Assembly: GCA_964016885.1 (NCBI GenBank)
Contig: OZ024746.1
Coordinates: 30,566,001-30,630,000 of the forward strand
Source of the DNA: Eledone cirrhosa
Taxonomy: Eukaryota
DNA: 64,000 nt
Reading direction: 5' to 3'
Below the pieces are notes generated by a model, which saw nothing but the letters and a program-made list of their open reading frames with translations, ran no database searches and was not told the origin of the DNA. Positions within the stretch are counted from its first letter, which is position 1. Each line of letters begins with the position of its first letter. Below are positions 15,772 to 53,817 of the stretch, piece after piece. The position numbers were made by a program, and so were the translations under genes.

Positions 15772-15775
<4 letters not shown>

Positions 15776-15967
15776 CGAAGGAAGTGTGTTAAGGAACTAG
15801 GTTGACCATAACGCACCAGAGTACTCGATACTTTGGATAGTAGAGTGGGTAATAGGAAAGGAGTCAGGGGGGGCCCCGACGTCTGAGCTCGGGCCGTTTC
15901 GACAGGTAGTTAAGAACTAGCTGTCGAAACGGCCGGAGCTCAGCCGTCGGGGTCCTGACTCTTTTCC

Positions 15968-15970
<3 letters not shown>
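15772..15970 (-). mobile_element. Hairpin mini-element (family B), diverged subfamily copy
   Basis: Same tail and palindrome layout, with arms ggaaaggagtcagg.../cctgactcttttcc. Confidence 0.8.
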
Positions 15971-20588: not shown

Positions 20589-22186
20589 ATGAACAACTTA
20601 CCAGCCACACAACAGGCAAAGAACCAATTCAACCACGCAGTATTCAACGACGAAACCAACGGCAAGCATCTAATTACCTTTCACATGGGTGTACAGGTTT
20701 GAACACCTGAAACAGATAACATGGGACGAAACACCTACTATAAACACACCCGGCAACACTCTCCTCTACGTGCAAGAAGACAGGAAGAATTATTTAATGA
20801 AGGTAATAACAAACCATCCTTCTATCGTTGTCTATCAGAAAGCAGCATACAGCAAAATCAAACATTGTCATGATATTCCATACTTCCATATAATTTCGTG
20901 GCACAAAAACCACCCCAGCAACATGCACGCATTCCAAATGCTAAAAACAATAACGAGAAACAAAGTCACCAACCCTTACCAACTAACGGCGCAAAAAATA
21001 TTCAACCCATACGGGTTTTGCCAATACTTAACCAAAGACGACAACATGAGATGGGTAGTCACAGCCAACACAAAGCCAGAAACTCATATTAAGACAACTT
21101 ACAAACAAAGACTACACACCACAGGATAATGAATCCGATGACGACGACAACAAAACTATACAAACAAACAAATCAGTACGTGGAGCAAAGTACAATTTCA
21201 TCAAAAAAATAATGAAAAGAGGCAACTCCATGGACATGGGCTATATCATCAGATATTGCAAAACAACCACGAAAGAAAAATACAAAACACAGTGGAACAA
21301 TATATACCAAAACACACCAAATTTACTTAACATAATACAAGCAGCCGCCACAGAAACAAATATAGAAACTAAGGTAACACCGATCTGGGAACAAATACAG
21401 GAAAAGACAGAGTTATTCACCAACATGGCAAATACATATCACGACGTACAAACATCTTTGGACATATATAACACATTCGAAGTCTGTCATAAGCTGAATC
21501 CAAAGAAAAATGGACTACATATAACAGGACCTTGCAACAGTGGCAAAAGCTATATTCTAAGATCTATCCGAAATGGGTTGATGAACTGTGGACGAATGCG
21601 ATGTCAGGCCTCCGATAACTTCACATTTGGAAGCTGCATCGACAAAACATTAATTTACACAGACGAAATGTGGTTCACAACCAACAATGTCGAGGAGGCA
21701 AAGTGCATACTGGAGAGCACCGACACCTATATAAACATCAAACACCAAAACGAGAGGATAATGAAACGAACACCGTCTCTGTCGACCAGTAATGTGGAAC
21801 CGTGGAAAGTCGTGACTCACGAGAAAAACGCGCTAAAAAGTAGACTCTTCTACTATGAAACAAGACGAGACATGCCCAAACTAAAGGAATGGGAACACAT
21901 TGAACTAAACCTGTTAATGTGGCTAACCATATGGAAGCCATACATAGATAAATACGTAGAAAAAGCATACCACCAAACGTACCTCACATCCAAACCCAGA
22001 CCTAGCAAACGATATAGAGTTAGCGAAACAAACAACCTATCACCAAAACTAAAGATAAAAATAGTAGAAGTAAGGCGCAACTTACAAGAACAACTACAGA
22101 CACCATCAACATCGAAAATAACGACATCCACACCCATAAAAACAGCGTGCGCATACGACTTAGATCAACTAGCACAGCGTGTGTAG
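20589..22186 (+). pseudogene. Endogenous parvovirus-like NS1 (HUH endonuclease + SF3 helicase), frameshifted
   Basis: ORF 20689-21129 has a degenerate HUH motif (PYFHII) and Tyr motif (QYLTK); ORF 21212-22186 has Walker A GPCNSGKS, Walker B LIYTDE, B' NIKHQ and motif C STSN; A/C-rich composition; frame change near 21060-21110. Confidence 0.85.
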
Positions 22187-31111: not shown

Positions 31112-31115
<4 letters not shown>

Positions 31116-31209
31116 CGAAGGAAATGTGGTAAGGAACCAGGTGGACCATAACGCACCAAAGTACTCAATACTTGGGGTAGTAGAGTGGGTAATAGGAACC
31201 AGTTCCTAT
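31112..31209 (-). mobile_element. Family B mini-element with the hairpin collapsed
   Basis: Intact tail followed only by ataggaaccagttcctat. Confidence 0.8.
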
Positions 31210-31770: not shown

Positions 31771-31960
31771 ATAACAAAGGAATTGTGGTAAGGAACCAAA
31801 TGGACCATAACGCACCAGAGTACTCAATACTTTGGGTAGTAGAGTGGGAAATATGAAAAAATATGACCCCGACGGCAGAGCGCAAGCCGTTTCGACGGCT
31901 ATTTCTGAGTCCAGAAATAGCCGTCGAAATGGCTTGAGCTCTGCCGTCGGAGTCATACGT

Positions 31961-31968
<8 letters not shown>
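31771..31968 (-). mobile_element. Hairpin mini-element (family B), subfamily copy
   Basis: Tail plus palindrome with arms gcagagc/gctctgc and ctatttctg/cagaaatag. Confidence 0.85.
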
Positions 31969-32091: not shown

Positions 32092-32559
32092 AGAAAGGGA
32101 AAATAGTAAACAAAAGCACGTTAAAGAAAGAAAACAACAAAATAATAGAATTAAATAGGGTACAAAAAACATTAAAATTAAGAAAAATAAGGAGGGGTGA
32201 GGGGGGGGGGGTGCAGTCTCTGTGTTTATCTCTGTATATGTGTGTATGTGTATGTGTGTGTATGTGTCTATGTTTGTGTATGTTTGTGTATGTATGTGTC
32301 TATGTATGTCTGTGTCTATGTATGTTCATGTGTATGTGTATGTGTGTATGTGTATGTATGTGTCTATGTTTGTGCATATTTAAGTATGTATACGTGTATG
32401 TCTATGTATGTCGATGGCTATGCCTGTGTTTAGATCTGTGTATGTTTGTGTATGTGCCTATGTTTGTGTATGTGCCTATGTATGTGTATATGTGTTTATG
32501 TGTACGTATGTGTCTATGTTTGTGTATGTGTATATGTGTCTATGTGTATATATGTGCCT

Positions 32560-34260
32560 ATGTCTGTGTATGTGTATATGTGACTATGTGTATGTGTCTA
32601 TGCTTGTATATGTGACTATGTGTATGTATGTGACTATGTGTATGTATGTGCCTATGTATGTGTATATGTGACTATGTGTATGTATGTGTATATGTGACTA
32701 TGTGTATGTATGTGCCTATGTATGTGTATATGTGACTATGTGTATGTATGTGCCTATGTATGTGTATATGTGACTATGTGTATGTATATGCCTATGTATG
32801 TGTATATGTGACTATGTGTATGTATGTGTATATGTGACTATGTGTATGTATATACCTATGTATGTGTATATGTGACTATGTGTATGTATATACCTATGTA
32901 TGTGTATATGTGACTATGTGTATGTATATACCTATGTATGTGTATATGTGACTATGTGTATGTATGTGTATATGTGAATATGTGTATGTATGTGCCTATG
33001 TATGTGTATATGTGACTATGTGTATGTATATACCTATGTATGTGTATATGTGACTATGTGTATGTATGTGTATATGTGACTATATGTATGTATATACCTA
33101 TGTATGTGTATATGTGACTATGTGTATGTATATACCTATGTATGTGTATATGTGACTATGTGTATGTATGTGCCTATGTATGTGTATATGTGACTATGTG
33201 TATGTATGTGCCTATGTATGTGTATATGTGACTATGTGTATGTATATACCTATGTATGTGTATATGTGACTATGTGTATGTATGTGTATATGTGACTATA
33301 TGTATGTATATACCTATGTATGTGTATATGTGACTATGTGTATGTATATACCTATGTATGTGTATATGTGACTATGTGTATGTATATACCTATGTATGTG
33401 TATATGTGACTATGTGTATGTATGTGCCTATGTATGTGTATATGTGACTATGTGTATGTATGTGCCTATGTATGTGTATATGTGACTATGTGTATGTATA
33501 TACCTATGTATGTGTATATGTGACTATGTGTATGTATGTGCCTATGTATGTGTATATGTGACTATGTGTATGTATGTGTATATGTGACTATGTGTATGTA
33601 TATGTGCCTATGTGTGTGTATATGTGACTATGTGTATGTATGTCCCTATGTATGTGTATATGTGACTATGTGTATGTATATACCTATGTATGTGTATATG
33701 TGACTATGTGTATGTATGTGCCTATGTATGTGTATATGTGACTATGTGTATGTGCCTATGTTTGTGTATATGTGACTATGTGTATGTATATACCTATGTA
33801 TGTGTATATGTGACTATGTGTATGTATGTGCCTATGTATGTGTATATGTGACTATGTGTATGTATGTGCCTATGTATGTGTATATGTGACTATGTGTATG
33901 TATGTGCCTATGTATGTGTATATGTGACTATGTGTATGTATATACCTATGTATGTGTATATGTGACTATGTGTATGTATGTGCCTATGTATGTGTATATG
34001 TGACTTTGTGTATGTATATACCTATGTATGTGTATATGTGACTATGTGTATGTATGTGCCTATGTATGTGTATATGTGACTATGTGTATGCATGTGCCTA
34101 TGTATGTGAATATGTGACTATGTGTATGTATGTGCCTATGTATGTGTATATGTGACTTTGTGTATGTATATACCTATGTATGTGTATATGTGACTAGGTG
34201 TATGTATGTGCCTATGTATGTGTATATGTGACTATGTGTATGTATGTGCCTATGTATGTG
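32560..34260. repeat. ~38-bp compound minisatellite built from TATG/TG units
   Basis: Unit tatgtgactatgtgtatgtatgtgcctatgtatgtgta with tatacc/tgtgcc variants and shorter ~26-bp units. Confidence 0.95.
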
Positions 34261-34467
34261 TCTTTGACTGAGAAATCTTGAAAAAGCCACTTTGACATTT
34301 CTTTCAACTTCGACATCAGGGGCATCTTATGTGCCAAATAATGACCTATGTTCTGAAACACACACACGTGTGTATATATATATATATACATACATACACG
34401 CTCACATATACACACATACAACACACACACACATATATATGTGTATATATATATATATACATACATA

Positions 34468-37774: not shown

Positions 37775-37822
<48 letters not shown>

Positions 37823-37828
<6 letters not shown>

Positions 37829-38016
37829 ACGAGTAGGACCCCGACGGCTGAGCTCAAGCCGTTTCGACGGCTAATTCTGAGTCCAGAATTAGCCGTCGAA
37901 ACGGCTTGAGCTCAGCCGTCGGGGTCCTACTCGTCCCTATTACCCACTCTACTACCCTAAGTATTGAGTACTTTGGTGCGTTATGGTCCACCTGATTCCT
38001 TACCACATTTCCTTCG

Positions 38017-38020
<4 letters not shown>
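37823..38020 (+). mobile_element. Hairpin mini-element (family B), perfect copy
   Basis: Perfect ~56-bp arms around loop AGTC, then tail; embedded in long pure (TA)n. Confidence 0.9.
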
Positions 38021-38108
<88 letters not shown>

Positions 38109-38183: not shown

Positions 38184-38225
38184 TACAAATATTAATAAAA
38201 TAGATGTTCTTTTGATCAATTAAAT

Positions 38226-38274
38226 TTTATTATACATATTTCAGAGGTACAACAGTACGTCCTCATCAGACAAA
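38226..38274 (-). ncRNA. Minimal hammerhead motif at the PLE 3' end
   Basis: tttgt-CTGATGA-ggacgtac tgtt gtacctct-GAAA-tatgta-TA-ataaa, same strand as the PLE ORFs. Confidence 0.7.
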
Positions 38275-39340
38275 GTATAATGATACATGACATACCCTGA
38301 GATGTTAAATGGTTAAGATTTAATCAAGGTAGTGATTAACCTATGAGAAAACTCAACATTTATACCCTAATAATGAGAAAATGCGAAAACGTAATAAATT
38401 CAACTTGCTTTAATGTAACAGTTATAGAGATTTTAAAATGTGGGATACTACAAATTATGATTATCGAGGAAGACGTCTCTGGAATTATAATTTTATTACA
38501 GTTTATGAAGGCAACTGATAGATGATTAAAGAGAGGGAGAGATAAAGGGGAGTAATTTATGCAGAAAAAAAATGTTTTCCCCTTAAGGACTAAGAGGTTA
38601 AGTTTCAAAATATTTAATTTATGTTATTTTAAGTTTTTAAAAGTTGATGGTTATTTATATTTATTAATTTTATAAATTTTATAAATTTTTTAAATGTGTT
38701 ACATTTCTAAAATTCTGAATTTTATGAAAACAAAATTAAAGGATTTCCTAGGCCCGCGAAAGAAAAATATACACTGTTGAATTACCCCTTAAATGTAATC
38801 TTTAACGAAAATTACCTATAACAGTGTCAACATTTTCGGTATGTAAAATTTATGAAGTACTTATTGTTAGAAATATCGAAAAATTTATTGTCAAGTAGAT
38901 ACATTGTCTAGAGTATAATGATTAACGCAGATTTTTCAGCCATATATATATATATATATATATATGTGTGCATTTATCGTAATAAATTAATATTTATTAT
39001 ATTATATTAAATCACTATATTAGTTCTACCTTCATGGGAGGAATGAAACCTAAATAATGAATATGTTATTGTACAATATATCTATATTTGACAAACTATA
39101 TATAGCGTTAAACCGAAACGGTAATTATGATTAAGTTATTATACATTATAAATATCGATGCAAAAAACCAAATGCAGAGATATACGTAACTAATAATATG
39201 ATTATGTTATTATACAATATACACATATTTGCAAAAAAATTAGGTATAGAGAGATATACTAAGTATTAATGAGACAGTATACTTTTGGTAAATGATAACG
39301 ATTATAATCTTATATAATAAGTTCAATGCAAAAGTTAAAT

Positions 39341-39640: not shown

Positions 39641-41803
39641 AGAAATAATGGTATGGATCAAAGTTAATAATATTATGTTATGTATATCAACGTGTCAGCA
39701 TGTTATTAAACAAGTGTCATTCATTCAAACGTTATTTCTTTTATAGATAGTTATAAGATAAAGCAATATTAAAGGCCATTAAGGTTTTCAACTGTTGATT
39801 ATGTACGTCTAAAAACCAAGTTTAGTTGCTTAGTGTTTTTCCTGGTCTTATGGGAGACTTGAAATGTAGACAAAGCTTTATGAAGGCAATTAGAGAATAA
39901 TTCACTTTTTTTGTTAATTAAGGTTTCATAATTATTAATAATCAACAGGGTCTCCATTGTACAAAGCGCGCAGTTTCTTGATATACCTGAGTTGCGGTAA
40001 ACTTCACTATTCCGAAGTTTCGTCCAAAAAATGGAGTATTTTAAATTCTTCTCTTTTAATATAAGCTGTGATAAAGAAGTGGATGATTTCCTCTTGGAGT
40101 TCGAAAATGAGCATTTATGGTTCGCAAATCTGGCTTTAAATGTAGAAGTCCATCCTATGTAGTTGTATGTGTTGTAATCAGTTTTTACGGTGCATTTATA
40201 CACCAAATTACTATCTAAACAATTATTTTGCAGAGGGCAATCAATTTTATTTCTACAATTACATTTTGGTTTATTATCATTTATGGTAACGCTATTATTA
40301 AGATCATTATGCTGATTCTGCTTTAGAATTTTAGTGTTTAATTTAGCGATATTCATAGTTGTAGGGCCATATTCATAGTTGTAGAATAAGACAATTTAAT
40401 GGTGTGTCTATTAAAAATGGAATGGTATTTATGTTGAGTAGGGAAAGAGATGTCCAAAGCCTTAAAGAATAATTTTGCAATTGGTGTTCTAACTGCTACC
40501 GAAGCAGGGGGGGGGGCAAACCATATGACTGATTTAGTTCTAGTTCTTTTCCTCAATTTGTTTGGCGTATAGGTGTTTGAATTATAATTATTTGAGTTTC
40601 GTTTATATATGCCATTATTTTTATCAGGATTAAAACTTGGATTATTATTATCTACATATTCTATACTATTCTCATATCCTGCTCTTTTTAATGCAGTATG
40701 CTGCATTATCATCAAATATAGCTTTATTGGCTGATATTCTATTAATGCGTTTTTTTGACACTATTTACTATAGCTTTTTTTTACAGATTTAGGGTGATTG
40801 GAATGGTTACTAACATAGTTTAAGTTTTCATTGGCCTTATGAAAAGGGTAATAAAAGCCAGAGTTTAAGTTAAACGTAACGTCTAGGAAATTAACTATTT
40901 TGTTACCTTTTTCTACTTCTAACTTAAGGTCATACATTTTAAAGAATTCTATTATACTTTTCTTTACTCTATTTAGTTCAATATTGTTGTGTTTGACCAC
41001 CGTAAATAAAATGTCGTCCCTATATAAACCACCGGTAATCTCCGGCAGTTTTCTATTTATCGTATTTAATATGAAAATTCCCAGAAGATCTGTGATTTGC
41101 GCAGAATCAGATGCCGCCATAGTAATATCAAAGTTTCTATTTCTATCTGAGCGAGTCCAATACTTATTGTTGAAGTTAATAAGAGTTCTTCTGGCTGTTA
41201 GTATTATATCAATTTCATCCGTGGTTATATCAGTATGCTTATAAGCGTATGATAGAGCCTTATTTAGTAGGTTAGATGTTATGGAAGAATAGTAGTTTGT
41301 TATGTCCATCTGGATGAATTTATGGTTTTTCTTATCGTCTATGTTCTTCTACCATTCTATGACTTCATTTGTATCTTTCCACAAGCTCAAATTAGATCTC
41401 AATTTAAGAGCAGGTAGGATTCTATCGATGATGTTTTTACTGATTACTCCAATATCCGATTTGGATGGAGCAATTAATCTAACTGGCATATCTTCCTCGA
41501 AGTTTCTTTTGTGATCCTTTAAGTTAATCCGCGACTGCCTAGGTATAAATGGCTCGGTTCTTCCTTCTATTCCTAAATTGGTAATTAATTTATAGGCAAC
41601 CTCGTTAATTTCTGTAAGATCTTCAGCCGGGGCTTTTTTATAATTTTTCCTAAGTTCCTTTAAAATCAAGTTTTTCAAAAGAACATCTATTTTATTAATA
41701 TGTGTATTTTAATATTAATAACTCTGGAAAATATTTTACTGTAGAGTGCTTCCAATCTACTGTAAAACTTATTCTTTGATGTACTCATTGAATCTTGTTT
41801 AAC

Positions 41804-42433: not shown

Positions 42434-42907
42434 ATAACAAAGGAATTGTGGTAAGGAACCAGATGGACCATAACGCACCAGAGTATTCAATGCTTAGGGT
42501 AGTAGAGTGGGAAATAGGAAAAAGTATGACCCCGACGGTAGAGCTCAAGCCGTTTCGGCGGCTATTTCTGGACTAAATTAGAATGTTTAGCCTGGTGAAT
42601 AAATAGCCGAACTTTTCATTCTTATAAATTCCCTTATATGGGAAGATTGTAGTTGTCAAGAGGATTGTTTAAAATTTGTTGTAAACACAAATAAGTCTAT
42701 CATGGCATTTGGTGGGAGTTAGTGGTGGATGAACTTGCCTGTAGAACAATAGAGGAGTGACAGGAGCGGTCAAGCGTTGAAAGTCATAGGTATACAGCAG
42801 ATTCTGAGGATAGAGTATGAAGTGGAGGAGGGAGGTTATAGAATAGGTAAATCGAATGAGAGTAGGAGACAATAAAAGATAATAAATAATAATTTATTGT
42901 CTCCTAC
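42434..42907 (-). mobile_element. Longer, non-palindromic family B element
   Basis: Tail and one arm followed by ~330 bp of unique sequence instead of the second arm; ends in a 15-bp inverted repeat (gtaggagacaataaa 42862-42876 / tttattgtctcctac 42893-42907). Confidence 0.65.
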
Positions 42908-42909
42908 AC

Positions 42910-43637
42910 ATAGAGCTTTCCAAAATCTCGACATCACTGATGTGGTCCCTCCAGTGAACGCCATGGATCCGTCTGAGACACATCTGATGGAAACGCTCCA
43001 ATTGCTTAAGGTGGTGTCGATATGTGACCCAGGTCTCGCAGGCATAAAGAAAACAAGAGAGCACACATTCCTTGTACACCTTTACACCTCCTGCATATGT
43101 CTCGCCGACCCCAGAGACGCCTTTCTAGCTTTCCGAAAGCATCACTTGCTTTCCTAAACCTAAGTGAGATTTCACTATCAAGGTTGCTGTATCGATTGAC
43201 AGTGCTTCCCAGGTAGACAAACTGATCAACCACTCCAAGTCGTTTACCATACACAGTGTACTGCTTACCAGGGGCAGGTTGGTACATGACGACGGTTTTC
43301 TTGAGACTGACAGTCATTCCTAGGGCAGTGCAAGCGTCAGAAAATGCATTCAAAATGTGCTGCATATCACTCTCTGTGTGCGCTACAAGATCGCAATCAT
43401 CTGCATACAAGAGGTCTCTTATGATTGATGTAAATACTTTTGTCTTTGCAGCAAAGCGCCTGATGTTAAATATGCTGCCTGAGGTTCGATATCGGATGTA
43501 AAAACCATGCTCGCAATTCCTGAATGCAATACAGAAAACCATTGCAAAGTATATGGCAAACAGGGTCGGTGCTGGAATATCCCCCTGTTTCACTCCATTT
43601 TTTACTGAGATAGGCTCCGACATTAACCCAAGCCTTC
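42910..43637 (-). mobile_element. RTE (BovB-like) LINE RT fragment
   Basis: GVKQGDIPAPTLF, LLYADD, FVYLGS, then LYACETW after a frameshift. Confidence 0.9.
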
Positions 43638-45889: not shown

Positions 45890-45916
45890 GCACACACACA
45901 CACACACACACACACA

Positions 45917-45966
45917 AATAGCTGTCGAAACGGCCGGAGCTCAGCTGTAGGTGTCCTGACTCTTTT

Positions 45967-45971
<5 letters not shown>
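45917..45971 (+). repeat. Single arm of a family B element
   Basis: tagctgtcgaaacggccggagctcagctgtaggtgtcctgactcttttcctat, matching the 15.9-kb subfamily. Confidence 0.75.
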
Positions 45972-48861: not shown

Positions 48862-51201
48862 CTTTAAATAGTTAAGGAGCCAGAAAAGATACCATCATGG
48901 CTAGTTAACGGCATTATATTCCTGCTTCCGAAGAATGATGAGACAAACAATCCCAAAAATTACAGACCGATAACTTGCTTGACCACAATGTATAAAATTT
49001 TAACATCAGTCCTAACTGAATACACATATAACCACCTGATAACAAATGACCTATTTCCCATTGAGCAGAAAGGGTTTAAACGAGGCTCATATGGCTGTAA
49101 GGATCAACTTTTGGTTAACAAAATGATACTGGAAGATTGTCATAATAGACACAAAAAGCTATCGATTGCTTGGATAGATTATAAAAAGCATTCGATAGTT
49201 TGCCACACAGTTGGATTGAAAAATGTTTAGAGATTTTCAAAATATCCCCCGTTGTCAGGGGGTTTTTGTCATTCAGTATGAAGACATGGAAAATGACACT
49301 CCTTTTGAATAGTGAAACAAAATTACTGGAAGCTGGAGAAGTTAATATTAATTGTGGAATTTTTCAGGGTGACTCTTTATCACCGCTTTTATTCTGCATC
49401 GCACTTATACCATTAAGTAAAATGCTCAATGAAACAAAACATGGATATAAAGTCTATGACAAAACCACTAATCACTTGTTCTACATGGATGACCTGAAAC
49501 TATTTGCAAAAAATGATGAACAATTGCAAGGGCTACTATCCACTGTGGAGCAGTTCAGTGATGACATTAAAATGGAGTTTGGACTAGATAAATGCGCCAA
49601 AGCAACGTTCACCAGAGGAAAGCTGCTGAAGAGTTCAGACATTAATCTTGATCGGTGGAACGTGATAGGAGAACTTGATCAAGAAAAAACTTACAAATAT
49701 CTAGGTGTTTGTGAAGGAGACGGAATCAAGCACTCGACAATGAGGGAAAGGATAAGGAAGGAATGTTACCGCAGAGTAAGAGCAATCTTAAGAACGGAAT
49801 TGAATGCAAGGAATAGGATCGATGCCATAAACTCGCTTGCCATACCAGTAGTAACCTACAGTTACAATGTCATCAACTGGTCAAGCACAGAGATCCGTAG
49901 GCTCGATACAAAAATTCGAAAATTCTTAACCATGCACAGAATGCATCACCCTAAGGCAGATATAGATAGAATATATCTCCCTAGGAAAGAAGGAGGACGT
50001 GGTTTAATCCAGTTAGACATTGCGTTGAAAACTGCAACAATTAGATTATCTACATATCTAAGGGAATCACATGATTGGATGATCAAACTCGTTTTGAAAC
50101 ATGAAAGCATCAAAAGACCATATTCCATTACAAAAGATGCACAAAGATACAGTAATGGATTACAAATTTCAGAAGTCCCATTTACTGCTGAAATGGAAAA
50201 CACAGAAAAAGCAAAGCAGGTAAAAGTAACTGCAAAGAAAGAACTGCTACAGAAACTGGCTAAGAAATGGCAAGAAAAGCCTCTGTATGGAAAATACCCA
50301 GAGCGAGCTAACAATCCTGATGTTGACAAAGCTTTAACCCATCAGTGGTTGGCATCCTCTGGACTGAAATCGGAGACTGAAGGACTGATTATATCAGCAC
50401 AAGATCAGTGTCTGCCAACAAAAAATTACCAAGCCAACATAATAAAAAATGGATGCAGCCCATTATGCCGTGTATGCAAAAAACAACCAGAGACCATTGA
50501 CCAGATAATTTCAATGTGCAGTCCTATAGCTCCAACCGAATACCTAAACAGGCATGATAGAGCTGCACAATACATACATTGGATAATGTGTAAGCATTTT
50601 AACCTGCCCCATCAAAAGAATTGGTGGGAGCATCAACCACCTCCCATACTTGAAAAAGATCACATCTCAATCTTGTGGAACTTTAGCATCCAAACAGACC
50701 GAAAAATAGATGCAAATAGACCTGATATAATATTGAAGGACTTTAAAAAGAGGGTATGCCTGCTAATTGATATGTCTGTTCCAATAGACAAGAATGTATC
50801 TATAAAAACATTTGAAAAATTGAGCAAGTATAAGGACCTGGAGATAGAAATTGGAAAAATGTGGAAATTGAGAACTAAAACAATACCAGTGGTTGTAGGC
50901 GCTCTGGGAATGATACCTAAGGGGTCTAACGATTACTTATCGCAAATCCCAGGAAACCCGCGTATAGGAGAAATACAAAAGATAGTACTAATGGGAACTG
51001 CCCATATACTAAGGAAGATTCTGTCAATATAAGTACATCACAAGTCTAAACACTAAAGATGGATGTGTGAGTATGTATGTTCTTTCTTGAACATGGCGGA
51101 CCTTGTTGTCTCTTGAGGTCACTGGTTGTGACTTGGTGATAACTCGTATGAACATAAAGCAAGATAAATGCAATTGTAATAATAATAATAATAATAATAA
51201 T
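48862..51201 (+). mobile_element. R4/Dong-clade LINE (family 1), 5'-truncated: RT + restriction-like endonuclease
   Basis: [49 protein letters not shown]; frameshift ~49190; (AAT)n tail. Confidence 0.92.
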
Positions 51202-51802
51202 TGTATCCGAGTGTAAACACCTAGCCCAGACACACTATAAAAGCTGGAGACATGATGTGATGGGCAGGGTGATCCACTGGCACCTATGCAAAGTAAACAA
51301 TTTACCACATTCTGAGAAGTGGTATGAGCATAAGCCAGAGTCGGTGATAGAAAACGATCAGGTGAAGGTGCTGTGGGATTTTAGGATACAGACGGACAAG
51401 AAACTGGAACACAATAGACCTGACCTGATGGTTGTGGACAAAGAAAAAAGATCGTGCCTGATTGTGGATGTGGCCTGCCCATTCGACACGAGAGTGCAAG
51501 AGAAGGAGAGGGAGAAAATTAACCGATACCAGGACTTAAATGTAAAAAGGATTTGGAACTGCCATGAAGTCAAAGTGATCCCGATTGTCATAGGCGCACT
51601 AGGGACTATCTCAAAAAGTTTCCAGGGATGGTTAAAGAAAATTGGCCCCTTCGCGCTTTTTGGAACGCTTCAAAAGGCATGCTTGCTGGGAACAGCAAGA
51701 ACCCTCCGATACGTCCTGAATATCTGAGGCTGCAGGTAGTGGCTTGATATTCATTTCAACAAACTTTCCAGTTAACTAACATCAATGACTGAGACTCAAA
51801 GA

Positions 51803-51857
<55 letters not shown>

Positions 51858-51862
51858 CAACA
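51202..51862 (+). mobile_element. R4/Dong-clade LINE (family 2), short 3' copy
   Basis: Endonuclease ORF (LWDF, NRPD, VDVACP), near-identical to 53197-53815; long (AAT)n tail. Confidence 0.92.
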
Positions 51863-53817
51863 ACTTGTTACCGAACGAACAGAAAGGATGCCGAAAGAAG
51901 TCCCGTGGTAGAAAGGACCAGTTACTTATTGATAAGATGGTAATGAGGAATTGCAAGAGGAGACACACTGGTCTTGCCATGGAATGGATAGACTACAAAA
52001 AGGCATTTGACATGGTGCCTCATTCTTGGATCACCAAAAGCCTAGAGATCTTCAAGGTGGCAGATAACATCAGACAGTTGTTGAGCAAAAGTATGAAGTC
52101 CTGGAAAACAGAGTTAACATCAGCTGGAGAATCCTTGGGAGGCGTGAAGATCAAGAGAGGTATCTTCCAGGGAGATAGTCTGTCCCCTCTGTTGTTTGTC
52201 CTTGCCCTGATGCCCCTGACCATTATACTGCGAAAAGTGAGAGCAGGATACAAGTTGGGAAAGGGAGAGCTTACCATCAATCACCTCCTCTTCATGGACG
52301 AGCTTAAGCTCTTCGGGAAGAGTGAGAAGGAGTTGGATGTGCTTGTTGACACTGTCCTTATTTTCAGCAATGATATATGTATGCAATTTGGTATTAGTAA
52401 GTGTGAAGTCCTTGTGATGAAGAGGGGTAAATTGAGCAGAAGCAACGGAATCCAGGTACCAACAGGTGAGATGATAAAGGAAATTGACACTGAAGAAGGA
52501 TACAAGTATTTGGGTATTCTTGAGGCTGATGACATCAAGAACAAAAGAATGAAGGAATTGATAAGATCTGAATACATTCGGAGAGTAAGGAGCGTATTAA
52601 GGTCACATCTGAACAGTAGGAATGCCATAAGTGCAGTAAATTCACGAGCTGTGTCTATTATTAGGTACAGTACGGGAATTCTGAGATGGAATGTTGCTGA
52701 ACAAAAAGAAATGGATAGGAAGACTAGGAAGCTATTGACTATCTACAACATGTTCCACAAGAGGAGTGATATCGATAGACTCTACTTAAGGAGATCTGAA
52801 GGTGGAAGAGGTCTTAATGCATAAAGGACTGTGTTCAGATGGAGAAAAACAACCTACTCAAATACGTGACCGATAGTAAGGAGCCAATGCTCAGAATTGT
52901 ACTGAAGGAGAGGACAATAGTCCAGGGGATGTCCAAGGAGGAAATAACAACAAGGAGAAAGAGCAGCCTTCATGAAAAATCCCTTCATAGTACCTTCTTT
53001 GAGAAAACAGAATTCAGAGATCCACAGACATGGAACTGGTTGAGAAGAGGAGACCTTAAAAAGGCTACAGAAGGAATGCTAATGGCTGCGCAAGAGCAGG
53101 CCCTCAAAACGAAGTGGCTGAAACACCATATTTACAAAGAGGAGACTAGCCCACTGTTCAGGATCTGTGGAAAGAGAGAGGAGACTGTGGCTCACATTGT
53201 ATCCGAGTGTCAACACCTAGCCCAGACTCACTATAAAGGATGGAGACATGATGTGATGGGCAGGGTGATCCACTGGCAGCTATGCAAAGTAAACAATTTA
53301 CCACATTCTGAGAAGTGGTATGAGCATAAGCCAGAGTCGGTGATAGAAAACGATCAGGTGAAGGTGCTATGGGATTTTAGGATACAGACGGACAAGAAAC
53401 TGAAACACAATAGACCTGACCTGGTGGTTTTGGACAAGGAAAAAAGATCGTGCCTGATTGTGGATGTGGCCTGCCCATTCGACAATAGAGTGCAAGAGAA
53501 TGAGAGGGAGAAAATTAACCGATACCAGGACTTAAAGTGGGAGGTAAAAAGGATTTGGAACTACCATGAAGTCAAAGTGGTCCCGATTGTCATAGGCGTA
53601 CTAGGTACTATCTCAAAAAGTTTCCAGGGATGGTTAAAGAAAATTGGCCCCGCCCCGCTTTTTGGAACACTTCAAAAGGCATGCTTGCTGGGAACAGTAA
53701 GAATCCTCGTCCTGAATATCTGGGCTGCAGGTAGTGGCTTGATATTCATTTCAACAAACTTTCCAGTTAACTAACATCAATGACTGAGACTCAAAGAACA
53801 ATAATAATAATAATAAT
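51863..53817 (+). mobile_element. R4/Dong-clade LINE (family 2), longer copy, inactive
   Basis: RT with FMDE in place of FMDD, frameshift ~52820, zinc knuckle and endonuclease motifs; (AAT)n tail. Confidence 0.92.

What the first reader, a model, noticed from the sequence alone, without database searches (positions are those of the whole stretch)
37823..38020. A ~195-bp (TA)n-inserted hairpin mini-element built from half a hammerhead ribozyme, in 9 full or partial copies
Seen: copies at 9386, 10704, 15772, 31112 (hairpin collapsed), 31771, 37823, 42434 (longer, non-palindromic), and single arms at 45917 and 56797. Complete copies are a ~56-bp-arm palindrome plus an ~80-bp tail, sit in (TA)n, and lack ORF, TIR pair, tRNA head and polyA. 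Each arm reads GAAA-CGGC-ttgagctca-GCCG-TC-ggggtcc, the GAAA / palindromic stem III / GUC / stem I' half of a minimal type I hammerhead, while the CUGANGA strand is replaced by the inverted copy. Known: PLE pLTRs carry minimal HHRs and give inverted 5' ends. Inference: this is either a self-propagating non-autonomous PLE family or a very reproducible fold-back product of a PLE at a hairpin next to the ribozyme core.
Basis: partly seen in the sequence, partly recalled or inferred. Interest (0 to 1): 0.78.

Follow-up and report, generated by a model that had tools for sequence, protein, structure and literature searches.

The report
Hairpin stubs of a Penelope retroelement
The 200-base hairpins are the shortest insertions of a Penelope-like jumping gene, present over 14,000 times in this animal genome, and their centres likely mark where the element's RNA begins and where its hammerhead ribozyme likely cuts, which would expose steps of a poorly understood copying mechanism.

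Summary
All nine copies are real. They are not a free-standing family. They are the minimal form of the known Penelope-like element (PLE) insertion: an inverted arm plus a forward arm with a 'tail'. The parent lies in this genome: a Hydra-clade PLE with a 740-aa telomerase-like RT/GIY-YIG ORF and a hammerhead in its pseudo-LTR. The core is the U3-A8 variant (5,143 sites), or C3·A8 in this copy's subfamily (1,680); a G8 core is nearly absent (30). At least 14,676 two-armed stubs exist. Their centres differ (45 distinct in 49), and they share subfamily variants with long copies (32 of 36). The arms stop at a sharp wall inside hammerhead loop 2 (61 of 99 tail ends), on initiator-like sequence, with an excess untemplated G. 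Template-jump junctions restart either at that wall (9 loci) or at the predicted hammerhead cut (6-8 loci). Best reading: two cDNAs primed at two internal start sites run off a capped RNA 5' end and are joined head to head; long copies come from continuous templates. The architecture is known. The mapping of RNA ends is the new part, and it is inferred from DNA alone.

The parts
37823..37879 (-). Inverted arm: copy of positions +5..+61 of the PLE pseudo-LTR (A of AGTCC = +1), ending at the tail-less 'short' end; last G may belong to this arm or be the untemplated G of the other
37880..37940 (+). Forward arm +1..+61: 3' strand of hammerhead stem II, GAAA, palindromic stem III, GUC, 3' strand of stem I; starts at the wall (inferred RNA 5' end)
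37898..37925 (+). 3' half of the hammerhead core; predicted cut between 37920 and 37921 (+41/+42)
37941..38020 (+). 80-nt PLE 'tail' (+62..+141) between the two fixed ends (inferred RT start sites); in the parent it continues into the ORF leader
37776..37822 (.). (TA)n target, left
38021..38095 (.). (TA)n target, right
9385..9578 (+). Two-armed stub, same subfamily as 37823
10704..10899 (-). Two-armed stub, second subfamily
15772..15970 (-). Two-armed stub, older divergent subfamily (81% to 37823)
31112..31206 (-). Collapsed stub: tail plus the outer ends of both arms
31771..31964 (-). Two-armed stub, third subfamily, same centre as 37823
42434..42832 (-). 5'-truncated long copy: about 260 nt of PLE 3' region with a decayed hammerhead 5' half, then arm and tail
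45913..45971 (+). Single arm ending at the short end, older subfamily
56797..56848 (+). Single decayed arm ending at the short end

Best explanation
Each hairpin is a minimal insertion of a Hydra-clade Penelope-like retrotransposon, likely made anew when two cDNAs, primed at two fixed sites in the element's RNA, run off its likely capped 5' end and are joined head to head. SHOWN: the stub sequence is the end of the parent's pseudo-LTR; the same two ends (+61 and +141) into (TA)n bound stubs and kilobase-long inverted insertions; stub arms stop at a wall at -4..+9 with copy-specific deletions and A/T-rich filler; an extra G absent from long copies precedes +1 in many arms; same-strand template jumps restart at the wall or at +42. 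INFERRED: the GIY-YIG domain nicks both strands of (TA)n; each strand primes RT, one at +61 and one at +141 (twin priming); on transcripts from an internal promoter (initiator-like TTAGTC at +1, TCATTT at -4) both cDNAs end after 60-145 nt, gain a cap-templated C or A-tails, and are joined by end-joining; RNAs cut by the hammerhead give ends at +42; long copies are made on templates with no free end at the wall (tandem read-through or hammerhead-made circles, or efficient transfer through terminal redundancy). The stubs lack the hammerhead 5' half and are probably dead ends.
For: Parent L034: ORF 3908-6130, 740 aa, best fold matches telomerase RT (9swn, 3du5), Hydra motifs RWR, DKT, CxC-x5-C (C in L046, F in L034), CxxC, CxH (PMC8557442 section 11). 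Fixed ends: 97 of 100 tail ends run into (TA)n; 140 of 148 short-end sites either continue into the tail (76) or run into (TA)n (64). Long inverted insertions have the same ends with breakpoints spread over 1.5 kb. Wall: of 99 unbiased tail sites, 61 start at the wall, 7 extend more than 60 nt beyond, 31 start further in; 19 of 30 arms in 464 kb of contiguous DNA. Independent origin: 45 distinct centres in 49 stubs; 32 of 36 recurrent stub variants also occur in long copies. Base before +1 genome-wide: T 16,029, G 5,050, C 4,275, A 827; 0 of the first 30 G sites lie in long copies; in 27 stubs with both arms reaching +1, G is 8 of 54 against 22 of 496 in inner filler, p=0.005. Jumps: 9 loci restart at the wall, 6 by script and 8 by eye at +41..+43, p=3e-6 or 5e-8. 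28 of 28 copies with at least 1,400 nt of ORF that reach the wall pass through it. PMC11167929 shows for another PLE in vitro that both strands are nicked and extended and that two internal RT start sites bound the tail.
Against: No RNA data: the start site, the cap and the cleavage are read from DNA junctions only. 13 of the first 30 G sites could take their G from the opposite arm, and T, not G, is the commonest base before +1 even in stubs (34 of 54). The +42 pile is weak in the unbiased sample (4 of 31 inner ends, p=0.025) and lies one base from the foot of stem III, where an RT pause is expected. This copy's subfamily has a C3·A8 mismatch that should weaken cleavage, yet 4 of the 8 +42 loci carry its downstream signature. 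Covariation across subfamilies is not significant. The promoter motifs are consensus matches recalled from knowledge, not tested. Arkhipova et al. 2013 explain palindromes at PLE inversion junctions by self-priming instead.
Confidence: 0.68

Rival explanations
1. Same PLE origin, but a single cDNA folds back or self-primes (possibly on an antisense template), and the wall is a structural or U/A-rich RT stop in hammerhead loop 2, not an RNA 5' end.
For: Self-priming is the published proposal for palindromes at PLE inversion junctions (PMC3846280 passages). Many centres are tight palindromes with microhomology. The wall lies just past the 3' strand of stem II.
Against: Centres often hold filler up to 40 nt, poly-A/T runs and G/C next to +1 on both arms. 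The same sequence stops none of 28 long cDNAs that meet it again (p=5e-18 against the first-encounter rate). Same-strand jumps restart at the wall, which needs a free end or at least RT release there.
Confidence: 0.17
2. The stubs are at least partly a self-propagating non-autonomous family: right arms that keep the internal promoter are transcribed and re-inserted by the PLE protein, getting a new centre each time.
For: Stubs outnumber long arms (14,676 loci against about 6,800 hammerhead 5' halves), and only 69 sites keep the tail-to-ORF junction for the pattern used. 4 of 36 recurrent variants, and one 7-arm signature, were seen only in stubs. Centre diversity alone does not exclude this route.
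Against: 32 of 36 variants and 9 of the 10 commonest downstream signatures occur in long copies too. Stubs end at +141, while the one PLE tested in vitro needs RNA downstream of the start sites (PMC11167929). They lack the ribozyme 5' half and are not tandem like retrozymes.
Confidence: 0.12
3. A DNA-transposon MITE or Helentron-type element that resembles a hammerhead by chance.
For: Short, palindromic, high copy number, in TA.
Against: The two termini are not inverted repeats of each other, and the sequence is contiguous with the 3' region and ORF leader of an RT/GIY-YIG element in dozens of loci.
Confidence: 0.02

Closest known systems
Hydra clade of endonuclease-bearing Penelope-like elements, incl. 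Hydra-1_Obim (Craig et al. 2021, PMC8557442; passages, section 11 and supplement parts read)
   Same: Single ORF of about 740 aa with C-terminal GIY-YIG, RWK/R, DKT, CxCx5C, CxxC and CxH motifs, no CCHH; (TA)n target; type I hammerhead at the 3' end; inverted 5'-truncated copy and optional tail.
   Different: Unit about 3.6 kb (published Hydra mostly under 3 kb) with a 1.2-kb 3' region; tail 80 nt against 30-40; all Hydra hammerheads in supplement S2 have C3-G8 cores and short loop 2, this one U3-A8 or C3·A8 with about 55 nt between the core halves; three short arm/tail motifs are absent from that supplement; most insertions here are about 200-bp stubs.
PAc (Poseidon, Anolis) in vitro mechanism (Frangieh et al. 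2024, PMC11167929; parts 1-2 of 4 read)
   Same: Two internal RT start sites bound the tail; both target strands nicked and extended; AT-rich target.
   Different: There the start sites lie inside the ORF and no RNA ends were found at the hammerhead cut; here they lie upstream of the ATG, and genomic junctions pile at the predicted cut and at a likely cap site.
U3-A8 minimal hammerheads of Schistosoma PLEs (Cervera and De la Pena 2014, PMC4209133; parts 1-2 of 4 read)
   Same: U3-A8 core covariation, short helix I, long helix II, palindromic helix III, G10.1-C11.1; head-to-head pairs 100-700 bp apart were noted.
   Different: Long stem III and loop 2; the stubs hold only the 3' half; one subfamily has C3·A8.
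Animal non-LTR retrozymes (PMC7229834 passages; bioRxiv 10.64898/2026.07.22.740005 part 1 and passages)
   Same: Short non-coding PLE-derived repeats with type I hammerhead sequence.
   Different: Retrozymes are head-to-tail tandems with a whole ribozyme per unit; these are head-to-head singles with half a ribozyme.
LINE-1 twin priming and untemplated 5' G (review PMC4859970, passages)
   Same: Inverted 5' part with small indels at the junction; extra G read as reverse-transcribed cap.
   Different: In L1 the second primer anneals at variable internal sites; here both start sites are fixed and both cDNAs end at the same place.

Membership tests
EN+ Penelope-like element (parent) | Single ORF with telomerase-like RT | tested here: met
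   Model pLDDT 86.5; top PDB fold matches are TERTs. Pfam and PDB sequence profiles gave no RT hit.
EN+ Penelope-like element (parent) | C-terminal GIY-YIG endonuclease | tested here: met
   YIGLT motif at 606 with downstream R/E/N pattern; GIY-YIG Pfam hits only weak, in 2 of 39 homologues and precomputed for P0001.
EN+ Penelope-like element (parent) | Pseudo-LTRs, inverted 5'-truncated copy, optional tail on one end | tested here: met
Hydra clade | RWK, DKT, CxCx5C, CxxC, CxH motifs; (TA)n target | tested here: met
   RWR (K to R), DKT, CNCPEGSIC in L046, CNLC, CKH; read by eye against Hydra-1_Obim in the supplement.
Hydra clade | Phylogenetic placement of RT | not tested
   Published Hydra proteins were not available as tool sequences; no tree built.
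Hydra clade | Canonical C3-G8 hammerhead | tested here: not met
   U3-A8 5,143, C3·A8 1,680, G8 30. A variant core, not absence of a hammerhead.
Type I hammerhead (parent pseudo-LTR) | Core boxes and helices I-III in order, N7 free, NUH cut site | tested here: met
   N7 takes all four bases while the other core letters stay; helices I-III 81-97% paired.
Type I hammerhead (parent pseudo-LTR) | Covariation in helices | tested here: inconclusive
   15 close sequences, covariation equal to shuffles; the outer helix I pairs were typed slightly out of register.
Type I hammerhead (parent pseudo-LTR) | Self-cleavage | not testable with these tools
   Indirect only: jump junctions at +42.
Type I hammerhead (the stub itself) | Both core halves present | tested here: not met
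   5' half absent.
Non-LTR retrozyme | Head-to-tail tandem units each with a whole hammerhead | tested here: not met
   the few short tandems (L281, L344) also lack the 5' half.
MITE | Terminal inverted repeats and a DNA-transposase partner | tested here: not met
   Ends differ (short end against tail end); partner is an RT element. A TSD cannot be read inside (TA)n.

The most novel reading that the evidence does not exclude
The stubs are a genome-wide fossil record of PLE 'strong-stop' DNA: a dimeric PLE protein primes both target strands at two fixed RNA sites, and the junctions record both the capped transcription start and in vivo hammerhead cleavage. Cap-started RNAs, which lack the ribozyme's 5' half, yield only dead hairpins, while hammerhead-processed circular (or end-transferred) RNAs yield more-than-unit, viable copies. 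This would give the PLE hammerhead a concrete role in replication.
Probability: 0.35. Interest if true: 0.8.

Novelty: new variant of a known kind. Interest (0 to 1): 0.57.

Why it matters
How PLEs form inverted ends, tails and more-than-unit copies, and whether their hammerheads cut in cells, are stated as open in PMC8557442 and PMC11167929. This family gives over 14,000 natural junctions at base resolution and exact predictions: RNA 5' ends at -4/+1 (capped) and +42 (5'-OH), RT starts at +61 and +141. Each is testable by CAGE, 5'-OH sequencing or an in vitro assay with an open ORF. The stubs are also a large source of perfect 57-bp hairpins in the host genome, and repeat pipelines could mislabel them as MITEs.

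Tried and rejected
Rfam scan of the window: no hammerhead among the 150 listed matches. Pfam on the parent ORF and PDB sequence profile: no RT hit; the fold search supplied it. Sequencing runs: no RNA holder listed; contigs of three coded runs show only that the repeat is abundant and has the same ends. Fold of the 5' leader of L034: z = -1.7, uninformative. An ungapped 5'-end caller whose anchor overlapped the cut site was discarded; BLAST end peaks at +57 and +65 are artefacts of subfamily divergence. Reading the core as CUGA-GA without N7 was rejected once N7 variation and U3 were seen. A splice acceptor at the wall was rejected because no upstream exon appears at the junctions and arms keep the AG. 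A link between the 56797 arm and the GIY-YIG remnant at 55978-56568 was rejected: the spacer does not match the parent's 3' region. Paper searches listed no description of such stubs or of cap/cleavage mapping from PLE junctions; subscription journals, Repbase and Dfam were not searchable, and bioRxiv supplements were not seen, so the family may be annotated there.

Full report
Numbering: +1 is the A of AGTCC that opens the forward arm (window 37880). The predicted hammerhead cut is +41/+42, the short end +61, the tail end +141. One search counts from the A four bases upstream.

1. Observation. All nine copies are present as described. The 37823 copy has a 57-nt inverted arm, a 61-nt forward arm and an 80-nt tail between (TA)n tracts. 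The window lies in a 3.0-Gb animal genome; an octopus-like host is my guess from recalled karyotype and repeat content, not tested. A tail 28-mer occurs 29,424 times (control 0) and an exact two-armed centre 14,676 times. These are lower bounds.

2. Parent. Two of the 30 best genomic matches were not palindromic. Their upstream DNA led to a GIY-YIG C-terminus and an ORF start. Among 20 long loci, L034 holds an inverted pseudo-LTR, a pseudo-LTR with tail, an open 740-aa ORF (3908-6130), 1.2 kb of 3' sequence and a tail-less pseudo-LTR. Pfam and PDB sequence profiles missed it, but its model (pLDDT 86.5) matches telomerase RT best. It has the motifs that define the Hydra clade in PMC8557442 and resembles Hydra-1_Obim by eye. 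No tree was built.

3. Hammerhead. In long copies the arm is preceded by ACCCC, a core box, G and a stem II strand. The box is UUGANAA with N = G, U, C or A in most subfamilies (5,143 sites), CUGANAA in others including that of the 37823 copy (1,680), and has G8 at only 30 sites. U3-A8 is a published natural variant in PLEs (PMC4209133). Covariation is not significant in 15 close sequences. The stub holds only the 3' half and cannot fold a ribozyme alone.

4. The stub is the smallest ordinary insertion. Long inverted insertions have one arm ending at +61 and one at +141, with breakpoints scattered over more than 1.5 kb. 97 of 100 tail ends run into (TA)n. This is the inverted-copy-plus-tail architecture of PLEs (PMC8557442), and the two ends fit the two RT start sites shown in vitro for another PLE (PMC11167929). 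Stubs look independently made: 45 distinct centres among 49; 32 of 36 recurrent variants also in long copies, from 129 stub and 74 long arms; 9 of the 10 commonest downstream signatures in both classes. That sample was partly chosen by pattern searches, so the shares are not genome-wide.

5. The wall. Of 99 tail sites taken in order along contig C1, 56 start within 12 nt from the A at -4, 5 within 11 nt upstream (mostly chance filler matches), 31 further in, and 7 more than 60 nt upstream; none starts between. In 464 kb of contiguous DNA, 19 of 30 arms start at -5..+9. One arm in the C1 sample (L140) runs about 20 nt past the wall. The wall sits in hammerhead loop 2 on TTAGTC and TCATTT, which match initiator consensus as I recall it; Penelope has an internal Inr/DPE promoter (PMC2377424 passages). 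The base before +1 is T 16,029, G 5,050, C 4,275 and A 827 times. Long copies have T or C there; 0 of the first 30 G sites are long copies. The script assigned 13 of those G to the opposite arm as possible source, 12 to filler and 5 to other junctions; for 20 C sites, 3 were long copies, 9 opposite arm, 2 filler, 6 other. In 27 stubs with both arms reaching +1, G is 8 of 54 against 22 of 496 inner filler bases (p=0.005). An untemplated G is the accepted sign of a reverse-transcribed cap in L1 (PMC4859970 passage). T stays the commonest base; runs longer than the three templated T show A-tailing, and some arms reach -4, so two starts are likely.

6. Jumps and the cut site. 69 sites keep the tail-to-ORF junction; 68 were examined, the other being L034. 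Of the 34 with at least 1,400 nt of ORF, 28 reach the wall and all 28 pass into 3' sequence (one is interrupted by a TA run); 6 are truncated earlier. The 34 sites with short ORF pieces reduce to 30 loci (L340-343 identical, L281/282 one locus). In 9 the next unit on the same strand starts at -4..+7, often after a G. In 6 by script and 8 by eye it starts at +41..+43, the predicted cut (p=3e-6 or 5e-8 against an even spread). 6 start elsewhere and 7 have no next unit. L281 repeats a wall-started unit twice and L344 has two units both starting at +42. In the unbiased sample the +42 excess is slight (4 of 31, p=0.025). A pause at the foot of stem III would end at +41 and cannot be fully excluded.

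7. Mechanism. Shown: parent, fixed ends, wall, varied centres, G excess, two restart points. Inferred: both strands of (TA)n are nicked and primed at +61 and +141; on promoter-started RNA both cDNAs run off the capped end and are joined, giving the stub; cut RNAs give +42 ends; long copies need a template without a free end at the wall, either tandem or circular RNA, or transfer through the 41-nt redundancy between +1 and the cut. My data do not separate these last routes. PLE origin is near certain (about 0.97); the run-off mechanism about 0.68. Self-priming (PMC3846280 passages) and secondary copying of stubs remain as rivals.

8. Novelty. The clade, the insertion architecture and the U3-A8 core are known. 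Seven paper searches listed no account of such stubs or of cap and cut sites read from PLE junctions; Repbase, Dfam and subscription journals were out of reach. Unchecked notes of this scan report similar stubs and end piles in other genomes; they are leads, not support, and suggest the pattern is general to PLEs. Papers seen: PMC11167929 and PMC4209133 parts 1-2 of 4; PMC8557442 passages, section 11, supplement part 2 and supplement passages; retrozyme preprint part 1 and passages; passages only of PMC2377424, PMC4859970, PMC3846280, PMC7229834, PMC5625713. Verdict: new variant of a known kind, interest 0.57.

Noticed in passing
window 20674-22186 (+): Parvovirus NS1-like endogenous viral fragment; the 21059-22186 frame hits Pfam Parvo_NS1 at E=4e-15.
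   Followed up: partly
window 39799-41700 (-) and 55978-56568 (+): Remnants of two other Hydra-like PLE families (broken RT and GIY-YIG; CxCx5C linker), divergent from the stub's parent.
   Followed up: partly
window 48868-53774 (+), 3842-4591 (-), 43006-43635 (-): Fragments of non-LTR retrotransposon RTs; the 49185-51032 frame hits RVT_1 at E=5e-17.
   Followed up: no
window ~38190-38400 (+): Another high-copy repeat next to the stub: very high summed contig depth; similar sequence flanks L285 and window 41700-41780.
   Followed up: no
L281 1299-2025; L344: Short head-to-tail arrays of wall-started (257 nt) or cut-started (about 290 nt) units that include the ORF start: possible small circular RNAs or repeated jumps, like nascent retrozymes without a whole ribozyme.
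   Followed up: partly
L340-L343 (G000:C20:16.25-16.31 Mb): Four identical copies of one rearranged insertion, probably a segmental repeat.
   Followed up: no
L034 7195-7310: The far 5' strand of helix I can pair with the bases just before +61, so the short end falls at the foot of an extended helix I; seen by eye, not tested.
   Followed up: no
window 60556-62166, 62895-64000, 32243-34261: Long minisatellite arrays with 24-, 138- and 38-bp units.
   Followed up: no
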